Origin: Candidatus Nomurabacteria bacterium
GTDB taxonomy: Bacteria; Patescibacteriota; Minisyncoccia; Phycocordibacterales; UBA9973
NCBI GenBank assembly: GCA_023267375.1
Contig: JAHFNJ010000005.1
Coordinates: forward strand, 1,285-65,284
DNA: 64,000 nt
Direction of reading: 5' to 3'
The notes beneath the pieces are model-generated. The model saw only the letters and a list, made by a program, of their open reading frames with translations. It was not told the origin of the DNA and did no database searches. This document shows positions 207 to 24,468 of this stretch, piece after piece (position 1 is the stretch's first letter; every line of letters begins with the position of its first letter). A program made the translations under genes and the position numbers.

Positions 207-2507
207 ATGCTTCATGTCAATCGTCAAATAATAAAAGTGTGCAAGCAGCGGCTTTTTTCGTACACGAAAAGTGTTCGCGGTTTTACGCTTATTGAAGTAG
301 TTTTGGTGATTGCTGTGATAGCCATCATTTCAGTTGTTAGTATCCCGCTTTCGCAATCTATCATCGAGCAGAATAATCTCAACTCAGCTCTTGATGTTAT
401 TCGTACTGATTTAGTGAGTGCACGATCGTTCGCTACTTCAGGAAAAAATAATACCTCTTGGGGTGTTCATATTGAGGCAAATAACGTTACGCTTTTTTCT
501 GGTTCTTCATATGGAGAGAATCCTGATTTTGATCAAACGGAGGCAATTCCTCGGTCTATTACGATAGAGGGGACACTACTTTCCGGTCGCACTATTGATA
601 TTGTGTTTTTGGAATGGTCCGGGCTCCCTGTATTGGAATCTACTTCTGGAACAATCACGCTTACTACAGCTAGTGGTAAACAAAAAACACTTACAATCAA
701 TTCGCAGGGAGTGGTTTATTTGTCTCAAAATGTCTCAATTGTGGAAGTGTCGTGTCATGCGGCGTATTCGGGTGATTGGTCAAGCGGTAGTGCCAACAAT
801 GGAAATGGTATTTGGCGCGGGTGTCATGGATCAGGGGGAACTCCAGCGCAAGACGAAAATATCACGATTGATGATGGAGTTGCAGTATCGATTGACACCG
901 CTCTTTCAAAAGATTTTGGTGATATTACAATTCTGGGAACACTCACTAACAATAGCGGGTCAGGATTGGTTGCACGTTCATTAACAACTCAAAGTAGTGG
1001 TTCGTATACATCATTCGGGACGACCGTAACGCTTGGCGGGAACACGGGGACGCTGGTGACTGTCGATGATGGAAGTTCGATTGATTCAAGTACTCATTTT
1101 ATTATTACGAGCGATGCTGATATTCAGGTATTTGGCGGAACCAATATTGATTCCTTTTTTTCTGGGTTCTCAGGGTCAATTACTTTTTCTCCAACACTTT
1201 CTACTGCGAGGCAGTATGTCTTGGCTGATGGAGGACATTCTATTAGTAATGCGTTTAATATTCTCTCAACTTCTCATAGCGGAGGAGTATTAACACTTAC
1301 CATTGCTGGTAGTAACACTATCGATTCTTTGCATCTCACAAACAGTGGCGACGATGCGGTGCTCCTTCTTAGTGGGGCCAATACTATCAATACAACTACG
1401 TTACTTAATTCATCAGAAAATAAACGATTATCTCTAGGGACATGGGGTGAACAAATCTTGAATGATATTTCTCTGACTGCTGGGGCGCAGGATAGCACTA
1501 TCTTTTTTTCACCGGAGAGTTCGAATACTTACGGTTCGTTTTCAGCTACGGGGAGTGTCTCGTTGAATGCGCAGGTATCTTTTTTACCGAGTGCTGGTCT
1601 TACTCAGACATTTTCCGGTTTGATAAACTTTGGTGAAAATACTAATTTTGTAATAATTGCACCATTAGTTGATTTTTCGAATATTCCGTCACTCTCTTTC
1701 TATAATTTTACTATCCAAAATAATGGCTTTCCTGTCACGGCGACATTTCCATATGCAGTTACTACTGTTATTGCCAACAATTTTATAGTGACTGGTACAG
1801 CTGAAAATAGTATTACGCTCATTTCAAGTGATGATATTACACCGACGCAATTTCAGATTGCTGGTGATGCAAGTAAATTTACTGTTACGTATGCCGACAT
1901 AAAAGATGCTGGTTGCGCAGAGATAACGGGAACGGGAATTGGGACTGACGGGTTTATTACAACAGATACCTCTGTTGATTCTGGTAATAATGGTACCTGC
2001 TGGTTTAACCATGGTATCGATCAGTCTCAGACAACACTCGATGGTAACAACATTTCAATTGGGAAGACGAGCGGCAATGGTATTCATCGAATTGCACAAT
2101 CATTTATTCCGTCAGTCGGCACCGTCTCTGGTTTTTCTCTTTCAAAGTTTACTGGGGATACAAATGAAGGAGTAATTAGTGGTGACGTTATCGTTTCAAT
2201 AGAAGCAGATGATGGATCTGGGCACCCCGACCATACTCCTATTGTTTCTTATACGATTGCAAATCAAGATTGGATTGGTTTGTCGGAAGGTCCATTCTCG
2301 TTTTCCTTCGATACACCAGGATCCCTTACTGTTGGTAATACATACTATTTAGTTGTTGAGGCAACAAGTGCGGATAACTCAAATTATGCAAACATTGACA
2401 TCAATATAAGCGATCTTTATGCAAATGGCAGCCTCTCAATATTTGATGATGCTGGTCTTGTGCAAAACTATTCAGGATACGATCTGTATTTTGCAGTTTC
2501 TTATTAA
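207..2507 (+). CDS. Prepilin-type N-terminal domain protein with large (~700 aa) C-terminal region; minor pilin / pilus-tip adhesin candidate
   Basis: 766-aa ORF. N-terminus has a class III signal peptide: ...RGFTLIEVVLVIAVIAIISVV (G|FTLIE with Glu at +5). It is Ser/Thr/Gly-rich. Its C-terminal ~145 aa are homologous to the C-terminus of the next ORF. It contains a Cys motif YADIKDAGC...DSGNNGTCW shared with the 1897-aa protein. Confidence 0.6.
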   Translation: MLHVNRQIIKVCKQRLFSYTKSVRGFTLIEVVLVIAVIAIISVVSIPLSQSIIEQNNLNSALDVIRTDLVSARSFATSGKNNTSWGVHIEANNVTLFSGSSYGENPDFDQTEAIPRSITIEGTLLSGRTIDIVFLEWSGLPVLESTSGTITLTTASGKQKTLTINSQGVVYLSQNVSIVEVSCHAAYSGDWSSGSANNGNGIWRGCHGSGGTPAQDENITIDDGVAVSIDTALSKDFGDITILGTLTNNSGSGLVARSLTTQSSGSYTSFGTTVTLGGNTGTLVTVDDGSSIDSSTHFIITSDADIQVFGGTNIDSFFSGFSGSITFSPTLSTARQYVLADGGHSISNAFNILSTSHSGGVLTLTIAGSNTIDSLHLTNSGDDAVLLLSGANTINTTTLLNSSENKRLSLGTWGEQILNDISLTAGAQDSTIFFSPESSNTYGSFSATGSVSLNAQVSFLPSAGLTQTFSGLINFGENTNFVIIAPLVDFSNIPSLSFYNFTIQNNGFPVTATFPYAVTTVIANNFIVTGTAENSITLISSDDITPTQFQIAGDASKFTVTYADIKDAGCAEITGTGIGTDGFITTDTSVDSGNNGTCWFNHGIDQSQTTLDGNNISIGKTSGNGIHRIAQSFIPSVGTVSGFSLSKFTGDTNEGVISGDVIVSIEADDGSGHPDHTPIVSYTIANQDWIGLSEGPFSFSFDTPGSLTVGNTYYLVVEATSADNSNYANIDINISDLYANGSLSIFDDAGLVQNYSGYDLYFAVSY

Positions 2508-2542: not shown

Positions 2543-3508
2543 ATGAAGTACGTGGTTAAACAGCCTTATCACAATACTGCCGGTTTTACGTTAATTGAGC
2601 TCATGCTTGCCGTGGCGCTTTTAGGACTCGTGGCACTCGGTATTTTTTCGGGCGTTTTGTTTGGACAACAAAGTATTACCAATGCTGGTACGCGCAACCG
2701 TACCACAGCTGTTGCGAATGCTACACTTGATATCGTACGCGGGTTGCGCAGTCAGATTTTTGACACCAATACCATACTTGCTGATGGGACGTATGGACTA
2801 GAGAGAAGCACCGGGCGGTGGTTGCTCGATGTGAGCAATTACGGCACAGGGGATACAAACGATTCGACGGGGCTCTATCGGGAGATTGCCATTGATCGAT
2901 CCACCAACCCAGATCAAGCAAAAATAAAAATAACAGTCTGGTCATCAGGAGACAGCAATAGTAGTACCACCCAACCACTCTCTGTTTCCACTATTGTTTC
3001 AAATTGGGAGTCCTTTGTTGATCAACAGCAAGTCTCGCAAGATTCAGCGCTCTCGTTTGGAGAAGGTACTACGACCGGTTTTACGTATGGCATTGTGCAA
3101 TCGTTTGTACCAACGGTGAGTTCTATTTCGGGTGTACGTTTGTACAAAAAAGCAGACACAGGATCTTTTACTGCTGGCGTTCAAGTTTCAATATATGCTG
3201 ATGCTGGTGGAGTCCCAGATATTGGTAGCCTTGTCACGCAGCAGAGTGGGACTTCGTTGGAACTTACTGATTGGTGGGCAAGTCTCGATGTCGGCGTTTT
3301 TTCTGTCGATTTACCTGATGCTGGTTTGACTCCTGGGAATACATACTGGATCGCTGTGGAACCGACTGCTGTTGATATTTCTGGGTCGACGCATCCAAAT
3401 CTTGGTGTCTATTCATCTGGTGGATACGGGGATGTTGAAACGTATAATGCCGATGATGGATGGAGTGTTCCAACAGGGGAGAGTTTTTATTTTGAAACAC
3501 TGTATTAA
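2543..3508 (+). CDS. Prepilin-type N-terminal domain protein (minor pilin candidate) with C-terminal domain shared with upstream ORF
   Basis: 321 aa. N-terminus is ...TAGFTLIELMLAVALLGLVALGIF (prepilin cleavage/methylation motif). C-terminal ~145 aa align with the C-terminus of ORF 207-2507 (QSFVPTV..G..L....TG...G..V.I.AD.GG.P....G.TY...VE.T). Confidence 0.6.
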   Translation: MKYVVKQPYHNTAGFTLIELMLAVALLGLVALGIFSGVLFGQQSITNAGTRNRTTAVANATLDIVRGLRSQIFDTNTILADGTYGLERSTGRWLLDVSNYGTGDTNDSTGLYREIAIDRSTNPDQAKIKITVWSSGDSNSSTTQPLSVSTIVSNWESFVDQQQVSQDSALSFGEGTTTGFTYGIVQSFVPTVSSISGVRLYKKADTGSFTAGVQVSIYADAGGVPDIGSLVTQQSGTSLELTDWWASLDVGVFSVDLPDAGLTPGNTYWIAVEPTAVDISGSTHPNLGVYSSGGYGDVETYNADDGWSVPTGESFYFETLY

Positions 3509-3513: not shown

Positions 3514-4815
3514 ATGGATACTCAAGCAAATAATAATAAAAAATATTATCGCAAGATTTTAAAGAAGAGAATGAAGCCTAGCGCTACAGGCTTTACGCTC
3601 ATGGAAATCATGCTCTATATTGCTGGTCTCTCACTTATTGTGCTCGCCATTTCCGCTTTGTATGTTATTACGCAAAAAACGAGAATTAAAACGGAGGCGA
3701 TTACCGCAGTAGAAGATCAAGGAGTCTTTATTTCTGATTTTATTACACACAAAATCCATGACGCTGTTAGTTTGACAACGCCAGCTACTATTGGGGCAAG
3801 CGCGTCCTCGCTCCAATTTGTGACATCTACTGGTACCAGTGCCACTATTGGTGTCGACACTGATAGTGGCATTCCGTATTTCCAAAATAGTACGACGTTT
3901 AATTTGTCGGATGATAGGGTAAAGCTTTCCCCTCGCATATATGCTATCAGCGAGAGTTTATCGTTGCTAGAGTACGATAATGGATGGAAAAATAAATTCT
4001 CCATCGATTGCTGTGGACTTGTGCATATAGCTTCTGATAAATATGGAAACTTATATATCTCAATAGGGGACGAAAACAAAGTATTTAAATATAATGGAAA
4101 AACTGTAAGTGCTCTTGGAGATGCTAGTGACGGGTTAAATTATCCCATAGGGATGGCTGTCGATTTTTTCGGGAATCTCTATGTTGCGAATCGTGATAGC
4201 AGTTCAATAGTAAAGTATGATGGTGCTTCTTGGAGTGAATTTGCAAATGCGGGAGATAATATAAGTGTGCCCACGGGTGTGGCTATTGATTCTCAAAATA
4301 ATATATATGTAGCAAATATCAATAGTTCTGATAATACAATTCTAAAATATGATGGTATCTCCTGGACTAGTATTGCTTCGGTTTCGGATTTTGGCACAAC
4401 CCCACTTGATATTGCTGTTGATTTATTGGATAACGTATATGTGAGTATTCCTGGAGCGGGGGCAATTATGAAATATGATGGACTTTCATGGGTTGCTATC
4501 GGTTCCCCTAGCGATGGTCTAACATCACCTAGTAGTATTTCTATAGATGCATTTAATAATGTATATGTAAATAATCAAGAAGGCTATGGTTCCATTTTAA
4601 AATACGATGGCTTATCATGGGCCACGATAATACCCGAAAGTAGTGATACCCCTCTATCTTATGGGATTGGTGCGGTTGGTCCCATAACATTTACTCGTGA
4701 TTCGGCAGATACTATCTCATATCGTTTTACGCTTAGTTCCAATACGACCAATACTGGCAATGAATATCAATATTCAAAAACATTTACCGGTACCGCATCA
4801 CTTCGGGTAAACTAA
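3514..4815 (+). CDS. Prepilin-type N-terminal domain fused to NHL-repeat beta-propeller
   Basis: 433 aa. N-terminus is ...TGFTLMEIMLYIAGLSLIVLAISALYV (pilin-like). C-terminal half has 5-6 NHL-type repeats (NLYVANRDSSSIVKYDG; NIYVANINSSDNTILKYDG; NVYVSIPGAGAIMKYDG; NVYVNNQEGYGSILKYDG). The 3' half is AT-rich. Confidence 0.6.
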   Translation: MDTQANNNKKYYRKILKKRMKPSATGFTLMEIMLYIAGLSLIVLAISALYVITQKTRIKTEAITAVEDQGVFISDFITHKIHDAVSLTTPATIGASASSLQFVTSTGTSATIGVDTDSGIPYFQNSTTFNLSDDRVKLSPRIYAISESLSLLEYDNGWKNKFSIDCCGLVHIASDKYGNLYISIGDENKVFKYNGKTVSALGDASDGLNYPIGMAVDFFGNLYVANRDSSSIVKYDGASWSEFANAGDNISVPTGVAIDSQNNIYVANINSSDNTILKYDGISWTSIASVSDFGTTPLDIAVDLLDNVYVSIPGAGAIMKYDGLSWVAIGSPSDGLTSPSSISIDAFNNVYVNNQEGYGSILKYDGLSWATIIPESSDTPLSYGIGAVGPITFTRDSADTISYRFTLSSNTTNTGNEYQYSKTFTGTASLRVN

Positions 4816-4838: not shown

Positions 4839-5801
4839 ATGTATCGAATGAACATTACTACGTCAAATACTACTGGTGGATATATTGCCCTTATGACGGT
4901 TATTATTGTGGCGACAGTTATTTCTGCTATCAGTGTGTCGATGCTTGCAAAGGGGACAAGTAGTTCCCAAGAAAGTTTGTCCGCATTACAGTCACAGCAA
5001 TCTCTTGCCTATGCAAGTGGGTGTATCGAAGCAGTACTCCTTGATTTAAAAACTGGCTCTACAACAGCCAACCAATATTTCCCTTCAGCAGATTTGTATC
5101 CGCTCACTGGAGTAGATATTAATGCTTTAGTAACACAACCTGTGTTACTTGAAAATCCAAATGGTGATGATTGCACCTATGCACTCGATTTAACAAATTT
5201 CTCTCAATTGAATACGCTGGCAACTGGTTCGATTACGGCGACAGGTTTTTCTGGTCCCGTCTCGAGTCAGATCGTCGCGACATTTTCAGGTAATCTCGAA
5301 AGTACTGAACCGATGATTATTAGTAACCTGTCCATCACTACATGGCATGAAAAGCCATATTTAAGTTTAAGTGTTTCCGATTCAAACGATGTTTTTGCTG
5401 TTTGGGAAGAAGACTCAGGAGATGTTCGTTGTGATGATTTGTCGACTGTCTGCGCAAAAACCTACACGATCGCAAACAATGGCGACAGTACGTTGACCTA
5501 TGATGTCACTGCGGATAAAAGCTGGGTCGTATTAGGTGGTGATCCATCGACGGGGACGTTGGGTGGTGGGCAGACTGCCACGATTCAAGTTTCTATTTCA
5601 ACCGATACATTACCTGATACACTGGCAACATCACCAACGTATCCAACGACGCCGATTGCAACTGCGACAATACAATTTGGTTTTGTGAGTTATCAAAATG
5701 GTGCCGGCGCAACAACACGCACGGTCAATTTTATGGTGCCTTCCGGGGTGACTGTCGGGAAGGCTGGTGCTACCATAGAAGGACTAGTTGCTATAAGATA
5801 A
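4839..5801 (+). CDS. PilX-like minor pilin / pilus assembly protein
   Basis: 320 aa. N-terminus is ...GGYIALMTVIIVATVISAISVSMLAKGTSSSQESLSALQSQQSLAYASGCIEAVL, which resembles the PilX N-terminal domain architecture (short leader, hydrophobic helix, then conserved A/E/G-rich segment). The rest is Thr/Ser-rich. Confidence 0.45.
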   Translation: MYRMNITTSNTTGGYIALMTVIIVATVISAISVSMLAKGTSSSQESLSALQSQQSLAYASGCIEAVLLDLKTGSTTANQYFPSADLYPLTGVDINALVTQPVLLENPNGDDCTYALDLTNFSQLNTLATGSITATGFSGPVSSQIVATFSGNLESTEPMIISNLSITTWHEKPYLSLSVSDSNDVFAVWEEDSGDVRCDDLSTVCAKTYTIANNGDSTLTYDVTADKSWVVLGGDPSTGTLGGGQTATIQVSISTDTLPDTLATSPTYPTTPIATATIQFGFVSYQNGAGATTRTVNFMVPSGVTVGKAGATIEGLVAIR

Positions 5802-5804: not shown

Positions 5805-8800
5805 ATGGCTGAAACATATACAATTAGAAATGGTGCGCTCAAGAAAGTGTTTTCTTTTTTTTCAAAGCGCAGCAAACTCTTTTTTACCATAGGGGTTTGT
5901 ATGTTTCTTTTTCTCGCCTCACCACACTCGGCATTTGCGGTGAATACTTGTGTTTCAAATGCAAGTGGTAACTGGAATACTGCAGCGACGTGGACTTCTT
6001 GTAGTAGCACTGTGCCACAAACAGGGGATTCAGTAAGAATTAGTAGCGGTCATTCAGTGGTAATGGATGTCGATACACCAGTACTTGGAAATGTGACAGT
6101 AAGAGGAACACTCAATACGTCAGATGGTGTAACGAGTCATACTCTCTCAGCTTCTCAGCTTTTTGTTGGAGAAAGTCTCGGAGGATATAACGGTACCTTT
6201 ATTGCTAACTCTTCTACTATCAATCTTTCAGGGACATCTGCTGTGTTGAGTATTCAAACAACTAGTAGTATTTTTACCTATGGCACTTCTACTGTAAATT
6301 TCACTGGTAACAGTGTTTCAGGTATGATTAATTTAGCATCTTCAGGTTCAGTTACCTTGTATAATGTAAACTCATCAGGAACCGGCACAAAGACAATAAG
6401 CTTAGCGAACGCTACCATCACAATTGCTAATGTCTTTACTATTTCTGCAGGCACTGTTGCGTTTTCAACAGCTGTGACCTCTGCGAACCTCATACTTTCA
6501 GGCACTACGGGTACACCACTTAATCTTACTGGTGGAAGTTTTACGGCCACAGGGAACAACACTACCGTTACGTATTCTGGAAATAATGCCGCGGGTAATA
6601 CCACTGTTGCCGCAGCTACATATGGCTCTTTGACTTTAAATAACAGCAGTGAGAGGTATCAACTTGGCGGAGATATTACTGTGGGTGGTACAACTATTAT
6701 ATCGGCCAGCACCGAGTTTACTTCGAGTGATGGGACAGATCATAACTTAACCACTGGCGGTCTTGTTATTTCCTCAAATGCGCTCTTCCTCATGAATAGT
6801 TCGACTATTACTATTACAGGTAATGCAAATACTGTTGCTAGTCAATTTACAAATTCTTCCAGTCGCCAAGACGCGATTGCTGCCGGAACCTCTACTATTA
6901 AGTTTACTGATACAAGTGTCTATTCTAAAACAATGAGCTCTGCTACTGCCACCTTTTATAATCTTTGGATAACTGGAACTGGAACTGGAACATATACTAT
7001 TACTGGGAGTGGTAGTAGCTCTTTTACTTTTAACGACATAAAAGATGATAATACTTCTGCGCATACGGTTAGTTTAAATTCAACCATATATGTAAACACC
7101 TTTAATGTTTCTGGGGCGGATAGTTCGCATAAAATTTCACTTACAAAGGCTGGTGGGGCAGGTGTTCTACATAAGACGAGTGGGTATGTAAGTATTGACT
7201 ATGTGAATATCGCGAACCTTACAGCTCAAGGTGGTGCTGCGTTTTATGCTGGTTCACACAGTACTGATAACGGAGGTAATTCTGGATGGATTTTTGGAGA
7301 TCCTTCATGCACAGCAACAACAAGCGGTGATTGGAATACGGGAGGGAATTGGACTGGTTGCTCGGGCGGTGGCGGTATTCCAGGAACATCAGATAACGTG
7401 ATAGTTCCTTCTGGAATAAATCTCACACTGAGCACGAACACAGCTACACTTGGAAATGTAAACGTGGCTGGCTCGATTGACACAACTGGCTCAAACTACG
7501 CAATCAATGCAGCGGGGCTTGTTATAAGTTCAACAGGTACAGTTATTGCAAATGGTTCAACTATTACACTCTCAGGTACGGGGGCGGCATTTTCTCTTTA
7601 TGGGGGGATATTTAGTGCCGGAACTTCAACAATTAATTACACAAACAGTTCAAGTGCTGCTAAAGCATTTACGGGTGGCAACGGAACATTTAATAATGTT
7701 ACTTTTACTACCGGTAGTACAGGAACATATACTATTACGGGTAACAATACATTCAACATTTTCTGGATTACTGGAACAGGGACAGGAACGTTTACATTTT
7801 CTAGTTCTTCCAATACTTTTACTGAACTAAAAGATGATAATACTTCTGCTCATTCCATCTTTGGAAATTCTTCTACGCAAACAGTGACAACTTTTTCTGT
7901 ATCGGGTGCCGATAGTTCGCATAAAATAAACTTTGGTTTAAACGTTTCAAAATCAAGTGGGGTTGTTGTTGCAAATTACCTGACTCTTACTGGTAGTGTT
8001 GCGAGCGGTGGGGCCTCGTGGTATGCCGTAAACAGTAATAATGGGGGCGGTGGAACATCAGGTTGGGTTTTTATTAGTGGTTGTGTAGCGATAACAACAG
8101 GAAATTGGAATACGGGAAGTAATTGGAGTGGTTGTACTGGTGGAGGAGGGGTTCCGGCGGCTGCGGACACTGTCACCATTGTATCTGGTGTAACAACTAC
8201 ACTTGATGTAGCGACTCCTGTTGTCACTGGCCTCACTGTTTCTGGCACGCTTGATACTAGTGTCACAAATTATGCACTCAATACAACGACACTCACCATT
8301 AGTTCCGGGGGAACGCTTACTGCTAATGGTTCAACCATTACACTTTCTGGAACTTCTGGAACGCTGTTTACAAACTCAGGTACTTTTACTGCAGGTACTT
8401 CGACGGTCGATTTCTCTGGAGCGAGTTCCGTAACTCTTAATTCTGGATCAATTACATTTTATAACCTCACTGTTTCTGGTGGCACTGTTGCAACAGTCAA
8501 AACACTCGGCGCCGCCACTACGCTTGCCTCTGGTGGTACGCTGACTGTTTCTGCGGGGACATTTGATCCAAGTACGTATCTTGTTACTGGTAATGGTTCA
8601 AACACTCTGGTTGTGGCTGGTGGAGCGGTTGCTCGAGTGAAAGCATCTACGTTTACAGGGAATTATTCATCGGGTTTCAGTAGCACTTCGTTTGCCGCCA
8701 ATTCCACTATTGATTACACCTTAAACGGTACGCAGACAGTTGATAGCACTATAAGTTATGTTAATTTGACGGTTTCAACGGGAGGAACAAAATCGTTGAA

Positions 8801-11498
8801 CGGATCGACTGTTGCCACGGGCACGACTACAATTAGTTCTGGGGCGACACTTACTACTACCGCGTCAAATTATGCGCTATCGACCGGGACGATTTCAATT
8901 GCTGGTACGCTCACTGCGAATGCCGCTACTATCTCGCTCTCGGGGACAGGTTCACTTTGGACAAAAACTGGAACGTTTACTCAAGGAACCTCAACAATAA
9001 AACTCACGGATGCATCTTCATCGAGTAAAACATTTGCAGGTGGTGGTGGAACGTTTTATAACTTCTGGATTTCTGGAACTGGTACTGGAGCATATACTAT
9101 TTCAGGTTCGAACACCTTTTCTACTTTTAAGGATGATAATACTTCAGCACACACCGTAAACTTTACTGCGAGTACAACACAAACAGTAACGACGTGGACT
9201 GTTTCTGGTGCAAGTAGTTCAAACAAGATTACAATGCAGAGTACTTCTTCTGGTAGTGCATGGAATTTGTCGAAATCAAGCGGAACAGTTACTTCAAATT
9301 ATTTGATTTTGCAAGATAGTCATGCTGCCGGTGGGGCAACCTGGAATGCAAACGGTAGTACAAATGTATCGGGGAACACCGGTTGGAATTTTGGCACGGT
9401 TTCTTGTACCTCAGTAGCTACTGGAGCTTGGAACACTTCTGCTACGTGGGATTGTAGTCATGTGCCTGCAACTGGTGAAACTGTTACCATCGCGGCTTCT
9501 CATGTTGTGACAATGGATGTTAATTCAGCGGTGCTCGGTTCTATTACTATTAGTGGAACCCTGACGACGAGTGCGAGTAATTACAGTTTGTCTGGAACAA
9601 CGATCACTATCGGTTCTAGTGGAACACTCACTGCCAACAGTTCAACCATTACGCTTTCTGGAACCTCTGGAACGTTGTTTACAAAAACAGGAACATTTAC
9701 AGCTGGGTCATCAACGGTGGTACTTTCAGGAAATGGATCTGCATCGGTAAATTCAGGTTCTATAATTTTCTACAATCTGACTTCTTCAGGGACAGGAACT
9801 AAAACAATTACAGGAACTACTGAAGTTGGTGGTGTGCTTACTGTTTCTGCTGGAGTATTCAGACTCAGTTCCGGTACGCTGGTACTTTCCGGAATTTCTG
9901 GGACACCAATTGTAAATTCAGGGACGATAAGTACTTTAAGCGCGACTACTGTTGTTTTTAGTGGTGATAATCCAGGGGGTAATACCACCATTCCTTCGTC
10001 AATCTCTTACTACAACCTCTCTTTTAATGGTACTGACACATACGATCTTTCAGGTGAAACAACCGTAAATGGGTCATTAGCAATTTCACAAGGAACTCTT
10101 TCTGCAGGGGCGCAGTATCTCAACGTTGCTAGAGATTGGATAAACTCCGTTGGAGTAGGTGGTTTTAGTGCTGGCACAGGGAGAGTTATCTTAAATACTG
10201 CTAATGACAGCACTATTACTGGCGCAACAACTTTTAATGATCTGACTATTTATTCTACTGGTGGTAAAAATGTATACTTTTCATATCAGGGTGGCGACAT
10301 TATCACTGTTGGTGGATCATTTGTTGTTACTGGATCTTCTGGGTCTCTTGTGTATCTCCGTTCAACGAGCTCGGGAAGTCAGTGGCATCTTTTGCCACAA
10401 GGTTCAGCGACGGTTGACTACGCCGACGTGATGGATGGTGGTTGTGAATCAGGAGCAATCACTATCACTGACAACCTTACAGATACTTCGATTGATTCGG
10501 GCAACAATGATTCATGCTGGTCATTCTTTGTGTCGCCTGCGGTGCGGTACATGCTTACGTCTGCAAATACTATGGATGTGTACGGCATCGGTGGTGGTTA
10601 TGGAGGATCGCCCGCGAGTCCGACTAAAATCCGTTCAGTTGCGCTTTCTGGTGGTTATACGCGCGTACAGCCAAAAAGTATTTTTGCTGAGGGGAGAACT
10701 GGTCGCATTTATGTGGCAACTAGTGATTCAAATGGGGAACTGCAAGTTTATGAAACAAATAATTATAACGGTTCAGGAAGTTCACCATCAAATCCGAAGT
10801 TGCTCACTACATACAATGCTTCTGTTTCTGGTACTGGAAATCGAGTTTGGGCGGATAGTGCCGGGAACGTGTTACTTGCCGTGTCGTCTGATACCACTGG
10901 CTCACTCATACTGCTTAACTCGAGCGGGGAAGCTGTTTCAAGTGCGAGTGCCCCAGCTACTATAAGTGATATCGCTGTGTATAAAGATACCGGTAGTACT
11001 GGATATGTGTATGTGGGTTCAGATGATACAACACTCCATATTTATTATTTTGATTCAGGTGGGGTGTATGACACAGGTAGCACTTTTGATATTGCGGTTG
11101 CTTCTCCGTATATAACTTCAGTAACAGCAGGCTCAGGCACAAAACTTGCGTACACTACTCTTGGTTCTGATCAGCTCTATTTAACAAATGATATTTCTCT
11201 CGATCCCGCGAATGCTAGTAATTCGTTGGTAACCGCTGAGAACTCTTCACTAGACACAGAGGTCCAAGGAGCTATCACTGCTTCAAGTTTGGGTGAGGTG
11301 CTCTTTGTTCCCGGTGCTGATGGGCTCTATCAGCCATATGTAAGTAATATTGCGGTGATTATTAATCCAGGAAACTACGCACCCTACACTCTCTCTGGGG
11401 GATTGACTGGTGTCTTTTATGATTCGACTGCAGTACATCTTTTTGGTTCTTCCGCTGTTGATGGGACGATACATTCGTTTGAACCGTATATACCGTAG
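5805..11498 (+). CDS. Giant (1897 aa) secreted repetitive surface protein; putative adhesin of the pilus locus
   Basis: Signal peptide ...FLFLASPHSAFA|VN. Four ~300-450 aa tandem modules each begin with a G(N/D/A)WNT..(N/T)W..C motif. Three internal sub-repeats of the form F(Y/N)(N/I)FWI(T/S)GTGTG...DDNTSAH...SGA(D/S)SS(H/N)KI were found. The unique C-terminal ~400 aa contains YADVMDGGCESGAITITDNLTDTSIDSGNNDSCW, shared with ORF 207-2507. Ser/Thr/Gly/Asn-rich. Confidence 0.7.
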   Translation: MAETYTIRNGALKKVFSFFSKRSKLFFTIGVCMFLFLASPHSAFAVNTCVSNASGNWNTAATWTSCSSTVPQTGDSVRISSGHSVVMDVDTPVLGNVTVRGTLNTSDGVTSHTLSASQLFVGESLGGYNGTFIANSSTINLSGTSAVLSIQTTSSIFTYGTSTVNFTGNSVSGMINLASSGSVTLYNVNSSGTGTKTISLANATITIANVFTISAGTVAFSTAVTSANLILSGTTGTPLNLTGGSFTATGNNTTVTYSGNNAAGNTTVAAATYGSLTLNNSSERYQLGGDITVGGTTIISASTEFTSSDGTDHNLTTGGLVISSNALFLMNSSTITITGNANTVASQFTNSSSRQDAIAAGTSTIKFTDTSVYSKTMSSATATFYNLWITGTGTGTYTITGSGSSSFTFNDIKDDNTSAHTVSLNSTIYVNTFNVSGADSSHKISLTKAGGAGVLHKTSGYVSIDYVNIANLTAQGGAAFYAGSHSTDNGGNSGWIFGDPSCTATTSGDWNTGGNWTGCSGGGGIPGTSDNVIVPSGINLTLSTNTATLGNVNVAGSIDTTGSNYAINAAGLVISSTGTVIANGSTITLSGTGAAFSLYGGIFSAGTSTINYTNSSSAAKAFTGGNGTFNNVTFTTGSTGTYTITGNNTFNIFWITGTGTGTFTFSSSSNTFTELKDDNTSAHSIFGNSSTQTVTTFSVSGADSSHKINFGLNVSKSSGVVVANYLTLTGSVASGGASWYAVNSNNGGGGTSGWVFISGCVAITTGNWNTGSNWSGCTGGGGVPAAADTVTIVSGVTTTLDVATPVVTGLTVSGTLDTSVTNYALNTTTLTISSGGTLTANGSTITLSGTSGTLFTNSGTFTAGTSTVDFSGASSVTLNSGSITFYNLTVSGGTVATVKTLGAATTLASGGTLTVSAGTFDPSTYLVTGNGSNTLVVAGGAVARVKASTFTGNYSSGFSSTSFAANSTIDYTLNGTQTVDSTISYVNLTVSTGGTKSLNGSTVATGTTTISSGATLTTTASNYALSTGTISIAGTLTANAATISLSGTGSLWTKTGTFTQGTSTIKLTDASSSSKTFAGGGGTFYNFWISGTGTGAYTISGSNTFSTFKDDNTSAHTVNFTASTTQTVTTWTVSGASSSNKITMQSTSSGSAWNLSKSSGTVTSNYLILQDSHAAGGATWNANGSTNVSGNTGWNFGTVSCTSVATGAWNTSATWDCSHVPATGETVTIAASHVVTMDVNSAVLGSITISGTLTTSASNYSLSGTTITIGSSGTLTANSSTITLSGTSGTLFTKTGTFTAGSSTVVLSGNGSASVNSGSIIFYNLTSSGTGTKTITGTTEVGGVLTVSAGVFRLSSGTLVLSGISGTPIVNSGTISTLSATTVVFSGDNPGGNTTIPSSISYYNLSFNGTDTYDLSGETTVNGSLAISQGTLSAGAQYLNVARDWINSVGVGGFSAGTGRVILNTANDSTITGATTFNDLTIYSTGGKNVYFSYQGGDIITVGGSFVVTGSSGSLVYLRSTSSGSQWHLLPQGSATVDYADVMDGGCESGAITITDNLTDTSIDSGNNDSCWSFFVSPAVRYMLTSANTMDVYGIGGGYGGSPASPTKIRSVALSGGYTRVQPKSIFAEGRTGRIYVATSDSNGELQVYETNNYNGSGSSPSNPKLLTTYNASVSGTGNRVWADSAGNVLLAVSSDTTGSLILLNSSGEAVSSASAPATISDIAVYKDTGSTGYVYVGSDDTTLHIYYFDSGGVYDTGSTFDIAVASPYITSVTAGSGTKLAYTTLGSDQLYLTNDISLDPANASNSLVTAENSSLDTEVQGAITASSLGEVLFVPGADGLYQPYVSNIAVIINPGNYAPYTLSGGLTGVFYDSTAVHLFGSSAVDGTIHSFEPYIP

Positions 11499-11544: not shown

Positions 11545-12078
11545 ATGCAGAGTAAACATAAGAAGATTATCGTAAGGGGTTCACTGCTCATCGTCTGTGT
11601 GGGAGTCTTTTTGTATGTCTATATTAGAAATACGGCAATTCGTGCTCCAGTATCGCCAATAGTTATACCAGAGGTAAGTCCTTTGCCAGAAAATGCTGAT
11701 AATCTCACCGGCGCAGATCTTGCTGCATACAACGAACGAATTGCATGGAAATCCTTATACGTGGGAAATCAAAAGCAGCTAAAAACAGCACAGCGTTTTT
11801 CATTGCCTGCTGGTTGGATTATCCGCGAGGATTATTTGTTTACTGTTTTGCCGCCAACGCTTGAATCAAAAATAAAAACCCATCGCGCTATTATTATGCG
11901 TCCACAAAAAACAATGAGTCGTGACGATGCTATTTTTACTGTAGTTAATACAAGTGATTCGTATTTGCAAAATCGTTGCCATAAAAGCACTACAAAGGTG
12001 AGTGTCTGCTATGGCGGGTCTAATCCCGAGACAAAGCAGGTGTTTGATTTACTCTTTTATCAATTCAAAGTACAATAA
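11545..12078 (+). CDS. Hypothetical membrane-anchored protein
   Basis: 177 aa. N-terminal TM helix (LLIVCVGVFLYVYI). No recognisable domain. Located between the giant protein and the major pilin genes. Confidence 0.5.
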   Translation: MQSKHKKIIVRGSLLIVCVGVFLYVYIRNTAIRAPVSPIVIPEVSPLPENADNLTGADLAAYNERIAWKSLYVGNQKQLKTAQRFSLPAGWIIREDYLFTVLPPTLESKIKTHRAIIMRPQKTMSRDDAIFTVVNTSDSYLQNRCHKSTTKVSVCYGGSNPETKQVFDLLFYQFKVQ

Positions 12079-12080: not shown

Positions 12081-12635
12081 GTGGGTATGAACAATAAGAA
12101 AATCAAAAGAGTTTTACATAAAGGTTTCACCCTTCTTGAAATCCTCCTTGTTGTTGCGGCAATTGCTATTTTGGCGGCAGTTGTTATTCGGGCGCTCAAT
12201 CCATCAAAACAGCTTGCTGATACGCGAAACTCGCAACGATCACTTGATTTGAATACCATTGTGAATGTTATCTATCAATACGAGATTGATAATAAAGGAG
12301 CTCTTCCTGATACTGATGCTAATGGGGGAGTCCTCATTCCGGTTGGCACCTATGATGCATCTGACCCAGACAATATCATCGATGACTCAGTAGAAATATG
12401 TCGATCGACAAGTACTGCAGATTGTGCAACAAATGGGCTCGTTGATTTATCTCCACTGCTTGAAAATAAAAAGTATATCGTTGCCATCCCAAACGATCCT
12501 TCCAACACCGATCCCGATGGCACCGGGTATTTCATTGTACAAGATTCAGAAAGTAACCGTATTACAGTGATAGCTCCAAACACAGAGCTTGAGCCAACAA
12601 CGTCGCTTCTAGTGCCACTCAACGCTTCTTTGTAA
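12081..12635 (+). CDS. pilA: Type IV major pilin (PilA-like), paralog 1
   Basis: 184 aa. Begins ...KGFTLLEILLVVAAIAILAAVVIRALNPSKQLADTRNSQRSLDLNTIVNVIYQYEIDNKGALP, a classic class III signal with G|FTLLE and a conserved N-terminal alpha-helix. C-terminal globular part is divergent. Confidence 0.8.
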   Translation: MGMNNKKIKRVLHKGFTLLEILLVVAAIAILAAVVIRALNPSKQLADTRNSQRSLDLNTIVNVIYQYEIDNKGALPDTDANGGVLIPVGTYDASDPDNIIDDSVEICRSTSTADCATNGLVDLSPLLENKKYIVAIPNDPSNTDPDGTGYFIVQDSESNRITVIAPNTELEPTTSLLVPLNASL

Positions 12636-12735
12636 AAGGAAATTTTCACTGTGGATAACTAAACTTCGTTAGTATTTCGATGTGCAGTATACTGTCTATA
12701 TTAGTAATTAGGTTTTTTTGTTCCATTTTTAATAT

Positions 12736-13347
12736 ATGAAAAAGAAATTAGGTTTATCATTTCGAAATAACAAAGGCTTCACTCTCCTTGAAATCCTCCT
12801 TGTTGTTGCGGCGATCGCTATTTTGGCGGGTATTGTTATTTTGGCGATAAATCCAGGTAAACAACTCGGCGATACTCGTGATGCGCAACGTAGAGTTGAT
12901 GTAAATACAATCTTGAATGCAATTTATCAATATGCTATCGATAATGGAGGCGCTTTCCCAGGAGATCTTGATGGTAGCAACAACTGTATCAGTGGCAATA
13001 CGTGTGTATCTGGTGCAATTGCGATTCCAGAAGGTACCGCGCCAACTCTTCCACTTGTTATAGATCCATCGGATCTTTCTGTTGATTCAGGCGATGTCGG
13101 TGCTGCTGTTGAGATTTTGAAGTACGACGGTACTTGTGATGCTTCTGGTACTGGATTGGTTGATATTTGTACTGATCTAACAGAAGATGGTGTGTATCTC
13201 GCTGGTATTCCTAATGACCCTTCGCTTAACACTACTGTTGATCCTCATGGTACTGGATACTGGATTTACAAGACCAGCAGTGGCCGTATTACCGTGATTG
13301 CTCCGTTTGCCGAACAAGCAGCGAGTGGTATTAGTGTGACGCGTTAA
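12736..13347 (+). CDS. pilA: Type IV major pilin (PilA-like), paralog 2
   Basis: 203 aa. Begins ...KGFTLLEILLVVAAIAILAGIVILAINPGKQLGDTRDAQRRVDVNTILNAIYQYAIDNGGAFP. The N-terminal ~75 aa and the underlying DNA (about 12123-12180 vs 12775-12832) are near-identical to paralog 1; the C-terminus is divergent. Confidence 0.8.
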   Translation: MKKKLGLSFRNNKGFTLLEILLVVAAIAILAGIVILAINPGKQLGDTRDAQRRVDVNTILNAIYQYAIDNGGAFPGDLDGSNNCISGNTCVSGAIAIPEGTAPTLPLVIDPSDLSVDSGDVGAAVEILKYDGTCDASGTGLVDICTDLTEDGVYLAGIPNDPSLNTTVDPHGTGYWIYKTSSGRITVIAPFAEQAASGISVTR

Positions 13348-13361: not shown

Positions 13362-15641
13362 ATGAAGGAGACACTTGGCACAATTTTTGCCAAATTCGGC
13401 GGCGCACAGAATAAATTGCACCGCCGAATTTATTTGGGAGGCACGCTCATTGCTTTCTCAGTTTTTGTTTTTGCCTTAGTCCTTACGTTTATCGCTTGGC
13501 GATATAATGTGCAAGTATTTAATCTTCAGTCGCAGTTGCGGTTTGATACAGTAAATCACAACGTTGTTGCCGATCTACAGAATAAAGCAAACAGAGATAT
13601 GGATGTCTTGCTTGCAACACAAGGTTTCTTTTCTGCCGCAGCAAGTATCAACCAAAAATCATTTCATGATTTTGTCGGAACACTTGATATTACTTCTCGC
13701 TACCCATCACTCTATGCACTCAACTACATAAAACGTGTTCCTGAAAGTTCGAAAAATATATTCCTCCAGTCGGTTCGTAATGATTCTTCTGTCAACAAAA
13801 AAGGATCACCGAATTTTACGATCACACCTACTACTACTTTTTCAACGTATGATATTTTAACCTACAGCCATGCGCGTGATATACCATTTCCTGCAATAGG
13901 AACAAATGTGAGTGCTGACGCTTCTTTTAAAGCTGCAATCGAACAAGCTCGTGATGAAGCAAAACCCATTGTTTTCAATACGCTCATGTCTACCTCTGAT
14001 GGCACACAGGTGTTTGCCGTGCTTGTACCGATTTATACAAAAACACCGACCCCTGAGACAGTAGCTCTTCGTCGCGCAGCATTTCGTGGCGTTATAGAAG
14101 GGGTATTTGAGTTAAAGTCATTTTTCAATGAAGCATTTCCTAATAAATTTGCATACCAAGGTGTCAACTTTGATGTGTACTATGGCGAGAATCTAATAAA
14201 AGATAATGTACTCTATAGCAATACCGTAAGTCCGGTTCCTGAGAATGAAAATCCTGAGATGCTCCTTGTTAATACAAGCAAGGTGATTGTCGCGAACACA
14301 CCACTCACTGTTACCTTCAGTGCAACACGCCAGGCGGTGGTTGGAGGGGTAACTGCTAAAATTCCACGAATCATTGGTTTGGGTGGTATTTTGGCGAGTC
14401 TATCACTCTTTGTCTTGGTATTGTCGTTTACAACCTCGCGACGTCGTGCTACTGAGCTTGCAAACATGATGACCTCGAGCATCAAGGAAAAAAATGAGCA
14501 GCTCGAAGCAAGTACCGCACTGTTGCAGCACGAGACGCATAAAATTAATGCCATCTTTTCTTCGATGGCAGAGAGTTTGATTGCCATCGATGATCAAGGT
14601 CGTGTGAAGTTGCTGAATCAAGCTGCCTCGGTTACATTGGGAATCGCAGAAGGTGATGCGCATGATAAAAAGATTGAAGAAATATTGCCCCTCTTTAGAA
14701 ACAAAGTACCTATTACTGAAAAGGAATCACCAGTCTATTATGCAATTCGCGAGAAGAGTATTGCTCGAACATTACTTCGTGATGATATGTATACTATGGG
14801 TCGCGATGGGAATACTTTCCCGATTGTGCTTTCTGCAACGTCGCTGTTAAATAAGGCTGATACAGGAGGTGTGTCTGGTATTATTATGTTTCGTGATGTA
14901 ACTGTAGAAAAATCAATTGACCAATCAAAGACAGAATTCGTGTCGCTAGCATCGCACCAGCTCCGCACGCCACTCACCGCTATTGGTTGGTATACCGAAA
15001 TGCTTATGTCAAACGACGTAGGTAAGACAACAAAAAAACAGCGTGAGTATCTTTCCGAAATTTCAACAAGTACCAAACGTATGGTTGACCTTATGAACGC
15101 GCTCCTTAACGTATCACGTATTGATTTGGGCACTTTTGCTATTGAGCCTGAAATGGTTGATGTTACCGAAATCGCAGAGAGTGTCATTAAAGAACAAGAG
15201 CCAACCATTGCGCTTAAGAAAATGAAAGTGACGCATGCATACGATAAGGGAATTCCAAAGATGTCGATGGATCCGCGTCTGACCCGTATTGTGTTCCAGA
15301 ACTTGCTTTCGAACGCCATAAAATATACTCCAGAGAAAGGATCTATCCATATGGCCGTTGAGAAACAGAAAGATAAAATACGCATTTCAGTTTCCGACAA
15401 TGGCTATGGTATTCCAAAATCAAATCAGGTAAAGATTTTCACAAAGCTCTATCGTGCTGATAATATTCTTATTAAAGATACCGACGGCACAGGGCTTGGC
15501 CTCTATATCGTGAAAGAAATTGTGGAACAATCAGGTGGTTCTATTTCGTTCACTTCAGAAGAAAATAAGGGGACAACATTTTATGTCATCTTTCCCAAAG
15601 AGGGGATGAAACCCAAAAAGGGCACAAAAGGGTTATCGTAA
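13362..15641 (+). CDS. Sensor histidine kinase with large periplasmic sensor domain, PAS, HisKA and HATPase_c domains
   Basis: 759 aa. Two TM segments flank a ~290-aa extracytoplasmic domain. H-box is FVSLASHQLRTPLTAIGWYTEML. ATP-binding G-boxes are DNGYGIP...GTGLGLYIVKEIVEQSGG. No adjacent response regulator. Confidence 0.8.
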   Translation: MKETLGTIFAKFGGAQNKLHRRIYLGGTLIAFSVFVFALVLTFIAWRYNVQVFNLQSQLRFDTVNHNVVADLQNKANRDMDVLLATQGFFSAAASINQKSFHDFVGTLDITSRYPSLYALNYIKRVPESSKNIFLQSVRNDSSVNKKGSPNFTITPTTTFSTYDILTYSHARDIPFPAIGTNVSADASFKAAIEQARDEAKPIVFNTLMSTSDGTQVFAVLVPIYTKTPTPETVALRRAAFRGVIEGVFELKSFFNEAFPNKFAYQGVNFDVYYGENLIKDNVLYSNTVSPVPENENPEMLLVNTSKVIVANTPLTVTFSATRQAVVGGVTAKIPRIIGLGGILASLSLFVLVLSFTTSRRRATELANMMTSSIKEKNEQLEASTALLQHETHKINAIFSSMAESLIAIDDQGRVKLLNQAASVTLGIAEGDAHDKKIEEILPLFRNKVPITEKESPVYYAIREKSIARTLLRDDMYTMGRDGNTFPIVLSATSLLNKADTGGVSGIIMFRDVTVEKSIDQSKTEFVSLASHQLRTPLTAIGWYTEMLMSNDVGKTTKKQREYLSEISTSTKRMVDLMNALLNVSRIDLGTFAIEPEMVDVTEIAESVIKEQEPTIALKKMKVTHAYDKGIPKMSMDPRLTRIVFQNLLSNAIKYTPEKGSIHMAVEKQKDKIRISVSDNGYGIPKSNQVKIFTKLYRADNILIKDTDGTGLGLYIVKEIVEQSGGSISFTSEENKGTTFYVIFPKEGMKPKKGTKGLS

Positions 15642-24241: not shown

Positions 24242-24389
24242 AATGCGAGCGAAGCAAGACAACTGCTTGTCTTGCGTTGGGATTTGAACAGCGGAGCTAT
24301 GTTTTACAAGCTTGCAAAACAAGCGAGCTGGTGCCCAGACCGAGCCGAGTGGCGACGAGGCGAGAGTCGCGGGAAAATCCCATCGCTTA

Positions 24390-24433: not shown

Positions 24434-24468
24434 GTCGAAAATATTTTTTATCTGCTATAATTCTCAAC

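What the first reader, a model, noticed from the sequence alone, without database searches (positions are those of the whole stretch)
1889..2003. Conserved Cys-bracketed motif shared by the 766-aa pilin fusion and the 1897-aa giant protein
ORF 207-2507 contains YADIKDAGCAEITGTGIGTDGFITTDTSVDSGNNGTCWF. The giant protein contains YADVMDGGCESGAITITDNLTDTSIDSGNNDSCWSF at about nt 10418-10527. Both match YAD(I/V).D.GC-x18-20-DSGNN..CW, a likely disulfide-bonded module. It links a pilin-anchored protein and a free secreted giant protein, suggesting a common interaction or anchoring function such as docking the giant protein onto the pilus.
Basis: seen in the sequence. Interest (0 to 1): 0.55.

Follow-up and report, generated by a model that had tools for sequence, protein, structure and literature searches.

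The report
Disulfide-stapled end-cap of beta-helix module
The shared Cys-bracketed motif is real, but it is the last stretch of a common beta-helix building block found in thousands of giant bacterial surface proteins, so it marks shared ancestry of a structural module and not a device for docking the giant protein onto the pilus.

Summary
The motif exists in both proteins, one base off the stated frame: ORF1 aa 562-600 (nt 1890-2006) and giant aa 1539-1574 (nt 10419-10526).

It is not a free-standing 40-aa module. It is the C-terminal part of an ~84-aa segment that closes a G8 + beta-helix repeat module.
- The giant has four such modules and ORF1 has one.
- The giant's three internal end segments carry the same motif without cysteines (Ala and Gly in their place).

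A profile of this segment finds 9,043 protein clusters. Most are 1-7 kaa multi-copy surface proteins, and none of the top 150 has a pilin N-terminus.

The Cys-Cys version is a minority variant typical of Patescibacteria (CPR) giants (36 of 40 genome loci). The second Cys never occurs without the first, which fits a structural disulfide. Only 3 of 41 external loci carry pilin genes nearby.

The giant's cap is 50-60% identical to caps in other genomes and only 33% identical to ORF1's. So the disulfide idea is supported and the docking idea is not.

The real pilus link is the operon: response regulator, PilB, PilC, four modular minor pilins, the giant, then two pilins. If the giant docks on the pilus, its unique C-terminal domain is the likelier interface.

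The parts
207..2507 (+). ORF1, 766 aa. A modular minor pilin (GspH/FimU-like N-terminus), then a G8-like start, a T/S/G-rich presumed beta-helix, the Cys-Cys cap and a C-terminal beta-sandwich domain.
   Evidence: Pfam N_methyl at aa 21-44. Weak GspH/ComGD/PRK10574 hits.
267..338 (+). Prepilin-type cleavage/methylation signal of ORF1 (..RGFTLIEVVLVIAVIAIISVV).
   Evidence: PF07963 24.1 bits and TIGR02532 23.7 bits.
747..1061 (+). G8-like N-terminal part of the ORF1 module, with the Cys pair C183/C206.
   Evidence: BLASTP against the giant's fourth G8 start gives 37% identity over 106 aa, E 5e-8. Pfam G8 itself is not hit in ORF1.
1737..2006 (+). Module end segment ('cap') of ORF1, aa 511-600.
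   Evidence: An HMM built without window sequences scores 36.6 bits, i-E 7e-11.
1890..2006 (+). The finding itself: YADIKDAGCAEITGTGIGTDGFITTDTSVDSGNNGTCWF, with C570 and C598.
2007..2504 (+). C-terminal domain of ORF1 ('QSF' domain), a predicted beta-sandwich. It is paralogous to the C-terminal domain of ORF2.
   Evidence: 33% identity, E 6e-13 to ORF2 aa 159-321. The AF2 model has pLDDT 57.7 and is all-beta. Foldseek best hit is phage phi812 baseplate protein 9euj_G, E 9e-7, on a low-confidence model.
2543..3508 (+). ORF2, 321 aa. A GspI/XpsI-like minor pilin with the same QSF C-terminal domain (nt 3017-3505).
3514..4815 (+). ORF3, 433 aa. A pilin with an NHL/SBBP beta-propeller.
   Evidence: The GFTLMEIM signal is visible in the translation. 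NHL and SBBP hits. A weak PRK10557 hit.
4839..5801 (+). ORF4, 320 aa. A GspK-like minor pilin whose hydrophobic N-terminus lacks Glu5, followed by a BACON/Ig-like domain.
   Evidence: NF037980 T2SS_GspK E 3.3e-4. BACON_2. Sequence.
5805..11498 (+). Giant protein, 1897 aa. It has a Sec-type signal peptide, four G8 + beta-helix modules and a unique 323-aa C-terminal domain. It has no pilin signal and no recognisable cell anchor.
   Evidence: Pfam G8 in 4 stretches, E 1.7e-29. G8 Cys pairs C49/66, C502/519, C760/777, C1201/1217. Translation.
7077..7298 (+). Cap of module 1, Cys-less (..DYVNIANLTAQGGAAFYAGSHSTDNGGNSGWIF).
7860..8075 (+). Cap of module 2, Cys-less.
9150..9395 (+). Cap of module 3, Cys-less (..NYLILQDSHAAGGATWNANGSTNVSGNTGWNF).
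10287..10526 (+). Cap of module 4, with C1547/C1571.
   Evidence: 67.4 bits. The AF2 model of aa 1198-1577 has pLDDT mostly 81-97 per 10-residue block and is an all-beta solenoid. The Cys loop has pLDDT 76-82.
10527..11495 (+). Unique C-terminal domain of the giant. It is possibly a beta-propeller, at low confidence.
   Evidence: AF2 pLDDT is 33-64 per 10-residue block, with a repeated four-strand pattern. Foldseek gives only weak beta-propeller hits, E ~3e-3. Pfam Beta-prop_ACSF4 E 0.072 and no PilY1/PilC family hit. No homologues found, but that search was unreliable.
11545..12078 (+). 177-aa protein with one N-terminal transmembrane helix. Function unknown.
12081..13347 (+). Two GspG/PilA-like pilins (12081-12635 and 12736-13347), candidate major subunits.
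   Evidence: N_methyl and TIGR01710 hits.
13362..15641 (+). CHASE-PAS histidine kinase that closes the cluster. Its likely partner response regulator lies upstream of the window.

Best explanation
The motif is the tail of an ~84-aa segment that terminates a repeated extracellular module. Each module starts with a G8 domain carrying its own Cys pair, continues as a right-handed beta-solenoid of roughly 250-450 residues, and ends in the consensus ..Y-[AV]-D-V-x-D-s-x-A-x-G-G..//..S-x-D-x-G-N-N-x-G-W-x-F.

In the variant seen here, the Ala after 'D-x-G' and the residue before the invariant Trp are both Cys. The two cysteines most likely form a disulfide closing a 24-28-residue loop. That bond would tie the last strand (W-x-F) back onto the final rung of the solenoid. 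It would act as a structural staple for an exposed protein end, not as a ligand site.

ORF1 and the giant share the motif because both carry this type of module. In ORF1 it is grafted onto a GspH-like pilin, making ORF1 a modular pilin. In the giant there are four tandem copies behind a Sec signal peptide.

Shown: homology of the segment, its position at module ends, its wide distribution, the CPR bias of the Cys variant, the Cys co-occurrence, the beta-solenoid prediction, and the operon context.

Inferred: the disulfide itself, and the stabilising role.

Inferred from context only: both proteins act at the surface of a type IV pilus system as adhesin-like, glycan-binding or glycan-cleaving beta-helices. 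Any attachment of the giant to the pilus would go through its unique C-terminal domain.
For: Position and homology
- The Cys motif aligns column for column with the Cys-less ends of the giant's modules 1-3 (A->C, G->C).
- A profile built without window sequences finds one cap in ORF1 and four in the giant, each just before the next G8 Cys pair or the C-terminal domain.
- Pfam finds four G8 domains in the giant. ORF1's module start matches the giant's G8 start at E 5e-8.
- The giant's whole module 4 aligns over 250-370 residues with modules in more than 100 other proteins.

Structure
- The AF2 model of giant aa 1198-1577 is a confident all-beta solenoid (most 10-residue blocks have pLDDT 81-97). 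C1547 sits at the end of a strand and C1571 immediately precedes W1572.

Distribution
- 9,043 clusters at E<=1e-3, with up to 13 copies per protein.
- The Cys pair occurs in a minority of copies. It is found in 40 genome loci, 36 of them labelled Patescibacteria/CPR.

Disulfide
- (C,C) is observed 27 times against 1.7 expected, and 'CW' never occurs without the upstream Cys.
- All cysteines of both mature proteins are in local pairs.
- Other subfamilies of the cap carry different local Cys pairs in the same loop.

Selection
- Protein-level conservation with synonymous divergence.
Against: - The disulfide is not demonstrated. The tools return no coordinates, so the Cys-Cys distance in the model could not be measured, and the loop has only moderate confidence (pLDDT 76-82).
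- ORF1's module between the G8-like start and the cap has no detectable homologue by phmmer, not even the giant. Its beta-helix nature is inferred, not shown.
- Pfam G8 is not hit in ORF1.
- No Pfam, NCBIfam or PDB entry covers the cap, so 'cap' is a positional and predicted-structure description, not an experimentally defined one.
- A dual role, structural plus a conserved binding surface, cannot be excluded.
Confidence: 0.8

Rival explanations
1. The Cys-bracketed motif is a dedicated interaction or anchoring element that lets the giant protein dock onto the pilus, for instance by pairing with the same motif on the pilin fusion.
For: - Both proteins are encoded in one type IV pilus operon: response regulator, PilB, PilC, ORF1-4, the giant, then two pilins.
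- Both carry the Cys variant, whereas the giant's three internal caps do not.
- Three other Cys-cap giants (L019, L030, L035) also have pilin genes nearby. In L019 and L035 the response regulator, PilB and PilC genes are there too.
Against: - 38 of 41 external loci with the Cys variant have no pilin-like gene in the flanks.
- The closest relatives of the giant's cap (50-60% identity) lie in a different, pilin-free conserved surface-protein cluster.
- ORF1's cap is only 33% identical to the giant's.
- 0 of the 153 retrieved proteins scanned (the top 150 plus P0001-P0003) carries a prepilin signal.
- In other CPR giants the Cys cap is internal and repeated, e.g. three copies in P0044.
- What follows the cap differs widely between proteins, as expected for a generic module end.
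Confidence: 0.06
2. The giant is a PilY1-like, non-pilin tip protein. It sits after four minor pilins (H/I/J/K-like) and docks on them through its unique C-terminal domain, possibly a beta-propeller. It would present four beta-helix modules at the pilus tip. The shared motif would be incidental to this.
For: - The gene order matches fimU-pilVWX-pilY1-type clusters: four minor pilins, then a large non-pilin secreted protein, then pilins.
- The giant has a signal peptide and no recognisable anchor.
- The C-terminal domain shows a repeated four-strand pattern and weak beta-propeller matches.
- The literature reports that PilY1 N-terminal modules are often shared with modular pilins (PMC8179133).
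- A beta-propeller minor pilin mediates host binding in Saccharibacteria (PMC11623550).
Against: - No PilY1/PilC family (PF05567) hit, even at E<=10.
- The C-terminal domain model is low confidence (pLDDT 33-64 per 10-residue block), and all Foldseek hits have E>1e-3.
- Most relatives of the giant are not pilus-linked.
- No experimental data.
Confidence: 0.3
3. The shared motif results from a recent intra-locus duplication or gene conversion between ORF1 and the giant, and has no functional meaning.
For: The two genes lie 3.3 kb apart on the same strand.
Against: - Nucleotide identity in the motif is 72 of 120 aligned columns, with synonymous differences in most conserved codons.
- The longest shared word between the two genes is 14 nt.
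- phmmer does not even connect the two modules outside their ends.
- The giant's cap is closer to caps in other genomes.
Confidence: 0.02

Closest known systems
G8 domain + PbH1-type beta-helix modules (Pfam PF10162; eukaryotic PKHD1/fibrocystin, CEMIP/KIAA1199, TMEM2, and many bacterial surface proteins)
   Same: The giant has four Pfam G8 matches (E 1.7e-29). Each begins with a Cys..W..Cys pair and is followed by a predicted beta-solenoid. These are extracellular, repeated modules.
   Different: The ~84-aa terminating segment with the D-S-G-N-N-x-G/C-W-x-F end is not covered by any Pfam or NCBIfam model, and no solved structure matches it by sequence. The Cys-Cys version is largely confined to Patescibacteria.
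Modular type IV pilins (S. sanguinis PilB/PilC; survey in PMC8179133) and ComZ of Thermus thermophilus (beta-solenoid pilin, PMC6561018)
   Same: ORF1 has a class III signal peptide and pilin N-terminus followed by bulky non-pilin modules. Like ComZ, its extra part is a large beta-solenoid-type module. It lies next to a small partner minor pilin, and such pilins are argued to fit only at the pilus tip.
   Different: In ComZ the solenoid is inserted into the pilin beta-sheet and binds DNA. In ORF1 the module appears to follow the pilin domain and is itself followed by a further beta-sandwich domain. No sequence relation to ComZ was tested or found. ORF1's architecture (pilin, G8/beta-helix, cap, QSF domain) was not seen in any retrieved protein.
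PilY1/PilC tip adhesins with the FimU-PilVWX (GspH-I-J-K-like) minor pilin complex
   Same: Gene order, large size, a secreted non-pilin protein, variable N-terminal modules and a C-terminal domain that may be a propeller.
   Different: No PF05567/IPR008707 signature. The N-terminal part is four G8/beta-helix modules. The organism is apparently a monoderm-like CPR bacterium.
Saccharibacteria T4P minor pilins PilX1 (beta-jelly-roll, lectin-like) and PilX2 (beta-propeller) (PMC11623550)
   Same: These are CPR pilus operons whose minor pilins carry lectin-like beta-sandwich and beta-propeller accessory domains thought to bind host glycans. ORF1 and ORF2 carry a beta-sandwich domain and ORF3 an NHL propeller.
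   Different: No giant G8/beta-helix protein is described in those loci, in the passages read.

Membership tests
G8 / beta-helix repeat module (Pfam PF10162 G8 plus solenoid) | Significant match to the G8 profile at the start of the module | tested here: met
   Giant: 4 stretches, E 1.7e-29, 102.6 bits against a cut-off of 22.9.
G8 / beta-helix repeat module (Pfam PF10162 G8 plus solenoid) | The same for ORF1 | tested here: inconclusive
   No Pfam G8 hit at E<=0.01. However, BLASTP gives 37% identity over 106 aa to the giant's G8 start, E 5e-8, with the Cys pair conserved.
G8 / beta-helix repeat module (Pfam PF10162 G8 plus solenoid) | Beta-solenoid body after G8 | tested here: met
   AF2 model of giant aa 1198-1577: regular short strands, with most 10-residue blocks at pLDDT 81-97. 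ORF1 was not modelled.
Module end segment ('cap') defined here by profile A3 | Match to a profile built from sequences outside the window | tested here: met
   ORF1 36.6 bits. Giant 52.0, 27.5, 84.3 and 67.4 bits.
Disulfide-bonded loop | Obligate co-occurrence of the two cysteines | tested here: met
   (C,C) 27 observed against 1.7 expected in 632 copies. No 'CW' without an upstream Cys.
Disulfide-bonded loop | S-S distance or chemical proof of the bond | not testable with these tools
   The model coordinates are not returned. There are no experimental data.
Type IV (modular) pilin: ORF1 | Class III signal peptide with G-F-T-L-I-E and a hydrophobic helix | tested here: met
   PF07963 24.1 bits (cut-off 21.2) and TIGR02532 23.7 bits (cut-off 16.3).
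Type IV (modular) pilin: ORF1 | Encoded with the assembly machinery (PilB/GspE ATPase, PilC/GspF platform) | tested here: met
   T2SSE+MshEN and T2SSF genes lie immediately upstream on the public contig that carries ORF1.
Type IV (modular) pilin: ORF1 | Processing by prepilin peptidase and incorporation into a filament | not testable with these tools
   No prepilin peptidase gene was seen in the window region examined. There are no experimental data.
GspH-I-J-K / FimU-PilVWX core minor pilin set (ORF1-4) | Family-level matches for each of the four | tested here: inconclusive
   Only sub-threshold NCBIfam hits (GspH, XpsI, PRK10557, GspK). The order of the genes and the Glu5-less N-terminus of ORF4 fit.
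PilY1/PilC tip adhesin: the giant | C-terminal PilY1/PilC beta-propeller (PF05567/IPR008707) | tested here: not met
   No hit at E<=10 for aa 1573-1897. There are only weak generic beta-propeller signals.
PilY1/PilC tip adhesin: the giant | Gene placed after the core minor pilins in a T4P cluster | tested here: met

The most novel reading that the evidence does not exclude
In this Patescibacteria-like organism, a compact type IV pilus operon regulated by a two-component system builds a tip complex from four modular minor pilins. These carry a beta-helix plus beta-sandwich, a beta-sandwich, an NHL propeller and an Ig/BACON domain. The complex also recruits a 1,897-aa four-module G8/beta-helix protein through the protein's unique C-terminal domain. 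That would make it a sequence-unrelated functional analogue of PilY1, in which the same adhesin or glycan-processing module is shown both on a pilin carrier and on a docked giant. A similar gene set next to Cys-cap giants in two other CPR genomes (L019, L035) hints that this is a recurrent arrangement.
Probability: 0.25. Interest if true: 0.6.

Novelty: new member of a known kind. Interest (0 to 1): 0.3.

Why it matters
For the finding as stated, the value lies in the correction. The motif is a marker of a widespread beta-helix module, not a pilus-docking signal, so it should not be used to infer pilus association.

Two by-products have some use.
- The ~84-aa module-terminating segment is very common (9,043 clusters at 50% identity) yet has no Pfam or NCBIfam model. 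A family definition would improve the annotation of giant surface proteins.
- The locus is a clear example, in an uncultivated CPR-type bacterium, of the modular-pilin strategy: the same surface module is used on a pilin and on a large secreted protein within one pilus operon. This bears on how epibiotic ultrasmall bacteria recognise their hosts.

Tried and rejected
- **Word-indexed homologue searches with full ORF1 and with the giant's C-terminal domain** returned nothing. These negatives are unreliable.
- **The search with the two-sequence motif alignment** gave only three weak Cys-less hits.
- **Metagenome scans with ORF1 and with the QSF-domain alignment** found no relatives.
- **Sequence searches of the PDB** with the cap profile, module 4 and both C-terminal domains gave nothing meaningful. 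The best 'hit' was a chance resemblance to antibody lambda light-chain CDR3.
- **Pfam at E<=10** on cap-containing fragments and both C-terminal domains gave nothing except a weak propeller hint.
A second was misaligned at the C-terminus and was abandoned.
- **Foldseek on the giant model** did not return beta-helix structures, only weak propeller matches to the low-confidence C-terminal domain.
- **The idea that the Cys variant marks only the last cap of a protein** was rejected. Other CPR giants have internal Cys caps.
- **Recent duplication or gene conversion** was rejected.
- **The organism could not be named.** GyrB is not on record, and the best genome-collection match to the giant's cap is 60% identical.
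Full report
**Observation**

ORF1 (207..2507, +, 766 aa) contains YADIKDAGCAEITGTGIGTDGFITTDTSVDSGNNGTCWF at aa 562-600. The giant ORF (5805..11498, +, 1897 aa) contains YADVMDGGCESGAITITDNLTDTSIDSGNNDSCWSF at aa 1539-1574. The correct spans are nt 1890-2006 and 10419-10526. The strict pattern occurs nowhere else in the six frames of the window.

**What the motif belongs to**

All cysteines of the mature giant fall into five short-range pairs. Four pairs are of the form C-x15-16-C around a Trp, at aa 49/66, 502/519, 760/777 and 1201/1217. The fifth is 1547/1571.
- Pfam places a G8 domain at each of the four N-terminal pairs (E 1.7e-29).
- Just before the second, third and fourth G8 start, the sequence ends in ..GGNSGWIF, ..GGTSGWVF and ..GNTGWNF.
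- Aligned with the two Cys motifs, these three module ends match column for column. The first Cys corresponds to Ala and the second to the Gly before the invariant Trp.

The giant is therefore a signal peptide, four [G8, T/S/G-rich body, end segment] modules and a 323-aa C-terminal domain. ORF1 has the same logic: a prepilin signal (Pfam N_methyl, TIGR02532), a G8-like start with C183/C206 (37% identical to the giant's fourth G8 start, E 5e-8), a T/S/G-rich body, the Cys end segment, and a 166-aa C-terminal domain.

A profile built only from sequences outside the window recognises one end segment in ORF1 (aa 511-600; 36.6 bits) and four in the giant (52.0, 27.5, 84.3 and 67.4 bits). It recognises nothing else among 294 window ORFs.

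**Structure**

I predicted giant aa 1198-1897 with a 27-row alignment. This gave a confident all-beta solenoid for aa 1198-1577 (most 10-residue blocks have pLDDT 81-97). C1547 lies at the end of a strand. The loop between the cysteines has pLDDT 76-82. C1571 sits directly before W1572. I use 'cap' for this terminating segment in a positional sense. No solved structure or curated family covers it.

**Distribution**

An exhaustive profile search with the 84-position cap profile found 9,043 clusters at E<=1e-3, 3,678 at <=1e-10 and 214 at <=1e-30. The top 150 are proteins of 674-7,732 aa with up to 13 copies.
- The giant's whole module 4 aligns over 250-370 residues with modules in more than 100 of these proteins.
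- Smaller members carry T9SS sorting domains or Big_9/cadherin domains.
- None of the 153 retrieved proteins scanned (the top 150 plus P0001-P0003), 124 of which begin with Met, has a prepilin signal.
- Among 653 cap copies in these proteins, the first Cys position is Ala in 388 and Asn in 165. The full Cys-Cys form was at first seen only in P0044 and P0127. A broader scan also found it in P0036.

A scan of one genome per species for [DN][SG]G[NG]N[DG][STA]CW returned 40 confirmed loci. Thirty-six are labelled as Patescibacteria/CPR lineages. The best is 60% identical to the giant's cap. ORF1's cap is only 33% identical to the giant's, while P0044's three caps are 51-53% identical to it. In these genomes the Cys cap is usually the only type present and can be internal and repeated. 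What follows the cap varies: a ~160-aa 'LSFSIS..' domain, long 'SGTVYD.DG' tails, or Gly-rich linkers. That fits a generic module end.

**Disulfide**

In 632 non-redundant caps, Cys before the Trp pairs with Cys at the upstream position 27 times against 1.7 expected. No 'CW' occurs without an upstream Cys. Other subfamilies place different local Cys pairs in the same loop. This is good comparative evidence for a structural disulfide, but it is not proof.

**Pilus linkage**

Of 41 external loci with the Cys variant (L001-L041), only L019, L030 and L035 have pilin-like ORFs in the flanks. The closest relatives of the giant (L001, L002, L004, L009, L013) lie instead in a conserved pilin-free cluster of secreted and membrane-anchored proteins.

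This particular giant is nevertheless inside a pilus operon. ORF1 is on record on two public contigs. Upstream of the window start these carry a Pur_ac_phosph_N protein, a response regulator, a T2SSE/MshEN ATPase (PilB-like) and a T2SSF platform protein (PilC-like).

Downstream follow:
- ORF1 (GspH-like);
- ORF2 (GspI/XpsI-like);
- ORF3 (a pilin with an NHL propeller);
- ORF4 (GspK-like, no Glu5, BACON/Ig);
- the giant;
- a 177-aa membrane protein;
- two GspG/PilA-like pilins;
- a CHASE-PAS histidine kinase.

L019 and L035 show the same families (response regulator, PilB, PilC and pilins; in L019 also a PAS kinase and a Pur_ac_phosph_N protein) next to their Cys-cap giants. Three of 41 is within what I would expect by chance for CPR genomes. 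That background figure is my assumption and was not measured.

**Other parts of the locus**

ORF1's C-terminal domain is paralogous to that of ORF2 (33% identity, E 6e-13). A low-confidence model (pLDDT 57.7) is a beta-sandwich. Its best structural match is a phage phi812 baseplate protein (E 9e-7), followed by weaker matches to carbohydrate-binding modules.

The giant's C-terminal domain has no detected relatives, though that search was unreliable. It is modelled at low confidence with a four-strand repeat pattern. It gives only weak beta-propeller matches and no PilY1 family hit.

**Interpretation**

The best-supported reading is that the motif is a disulfide-stapled variant of the terminating segment of a G8/beta-helix module. 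ORF1 and the giant share it through common module ancestry. The motif is kept by purifying selection: synonymous sites have diverged and no nucleotide word longer than 14 is shared.

The locus fits the published 'modular pilin' concept. The same functional modules appear on pilin carriers and on PilY1-type non-pilin tip proteins (PMC8179133). There is precedent for a beta-solenoid tip pilin in ComZ (PMC6561018). Lectin-like and propeller minor pilins mediate host binding in Saccharibacteria (PMC11623550).

If the giant is attached to the pilus, its unique C-terminal domain is the more plausible interface. That is inference from context.

**Verdict**

The docking part is not. The motif itself is ordinary, and the locus is moderately interesting.

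Noticed in passing
L001 19100-24900; L002 10900-16750; L004 10827-15517; L009 10794-16141; L013 10745-16088: The closest relatives of the giant are followed by a conserved cluster. It comprises a 350-396-aa secreted protein sharing the giant's ~160-aa C-terminal domain (ending ..TYxxTLTFxxTGTF), a ~340-aa 'LTLSPVRFEL' protein with a C-terminal TM helix, a ~300-aa protein ending in a dockerin-like DLNGDGKV..FSI..YWTG motif, and two more anchored or secreted proteins. It looks like a CPR cell-surface complex locus and contains no pilins.
   Followed up: partly
window 2007-2504 and 3017-3505: Two adjacent minor pilins (ORF1, ORF2) share a ~165-aa C-terminal domain with an 'IAQSFIP' signature (33% identity, E 6e-13). 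No Pfam or NCBIfam model matches it. The low-confidence model is a beta-sandwich resembling a phage baseplate protein (best match phi812 9euj_G) and, more weakly, carbohydrate-binding modules.
   Followed up: partly
window 3514-4815: ORF3 is a pilin whose globular part appears to contain an NHL/SBBP beta-propeller. Pilin-like sequence resumes after the propeller, which suggests a domain insertion and not a C-terminal fusion.
   Followed up: no
L044 5222-9952 (upstream of the window start) and window 13362-15641; L019 12169-20219; L035 11338-17401: The pilus cluster is bracketed by a response regulator upstream and a CHASE-PAS histidine kinase downstream. The same families (response regulator, PilB with MshEN, PilC and pilins; in L019 also a PAS kinase and a Pur_ac_phosph_N/fn3 protein) recur beside Cys-cap giants in two other CPR MAGs.
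   Followed up: partly
window 32616-34205 (-); L001 1277-2518: Proteins with a T9SS C-terminal sorting domain (Por_Secre_tail) occur in genomes that otherwise look like Patescibacteria, which are not known for type IX secretion.
   Followed up: no
window 24277-27561: A 1,094-aa ORF with a TTG start fuses glutamine-dependent asparagine synthase domains to an NMT1/THI5-like domain.
   Followed up: no
window 15686-16396: The PheS-like alpha subunit is only 236 aa (core domain only). PheT is 619 aa and its ORF overlaps the end of PheS.
   Followed up: no
'No homologues' for such low-complexity proteins is not reliable.
   Followed up: yes
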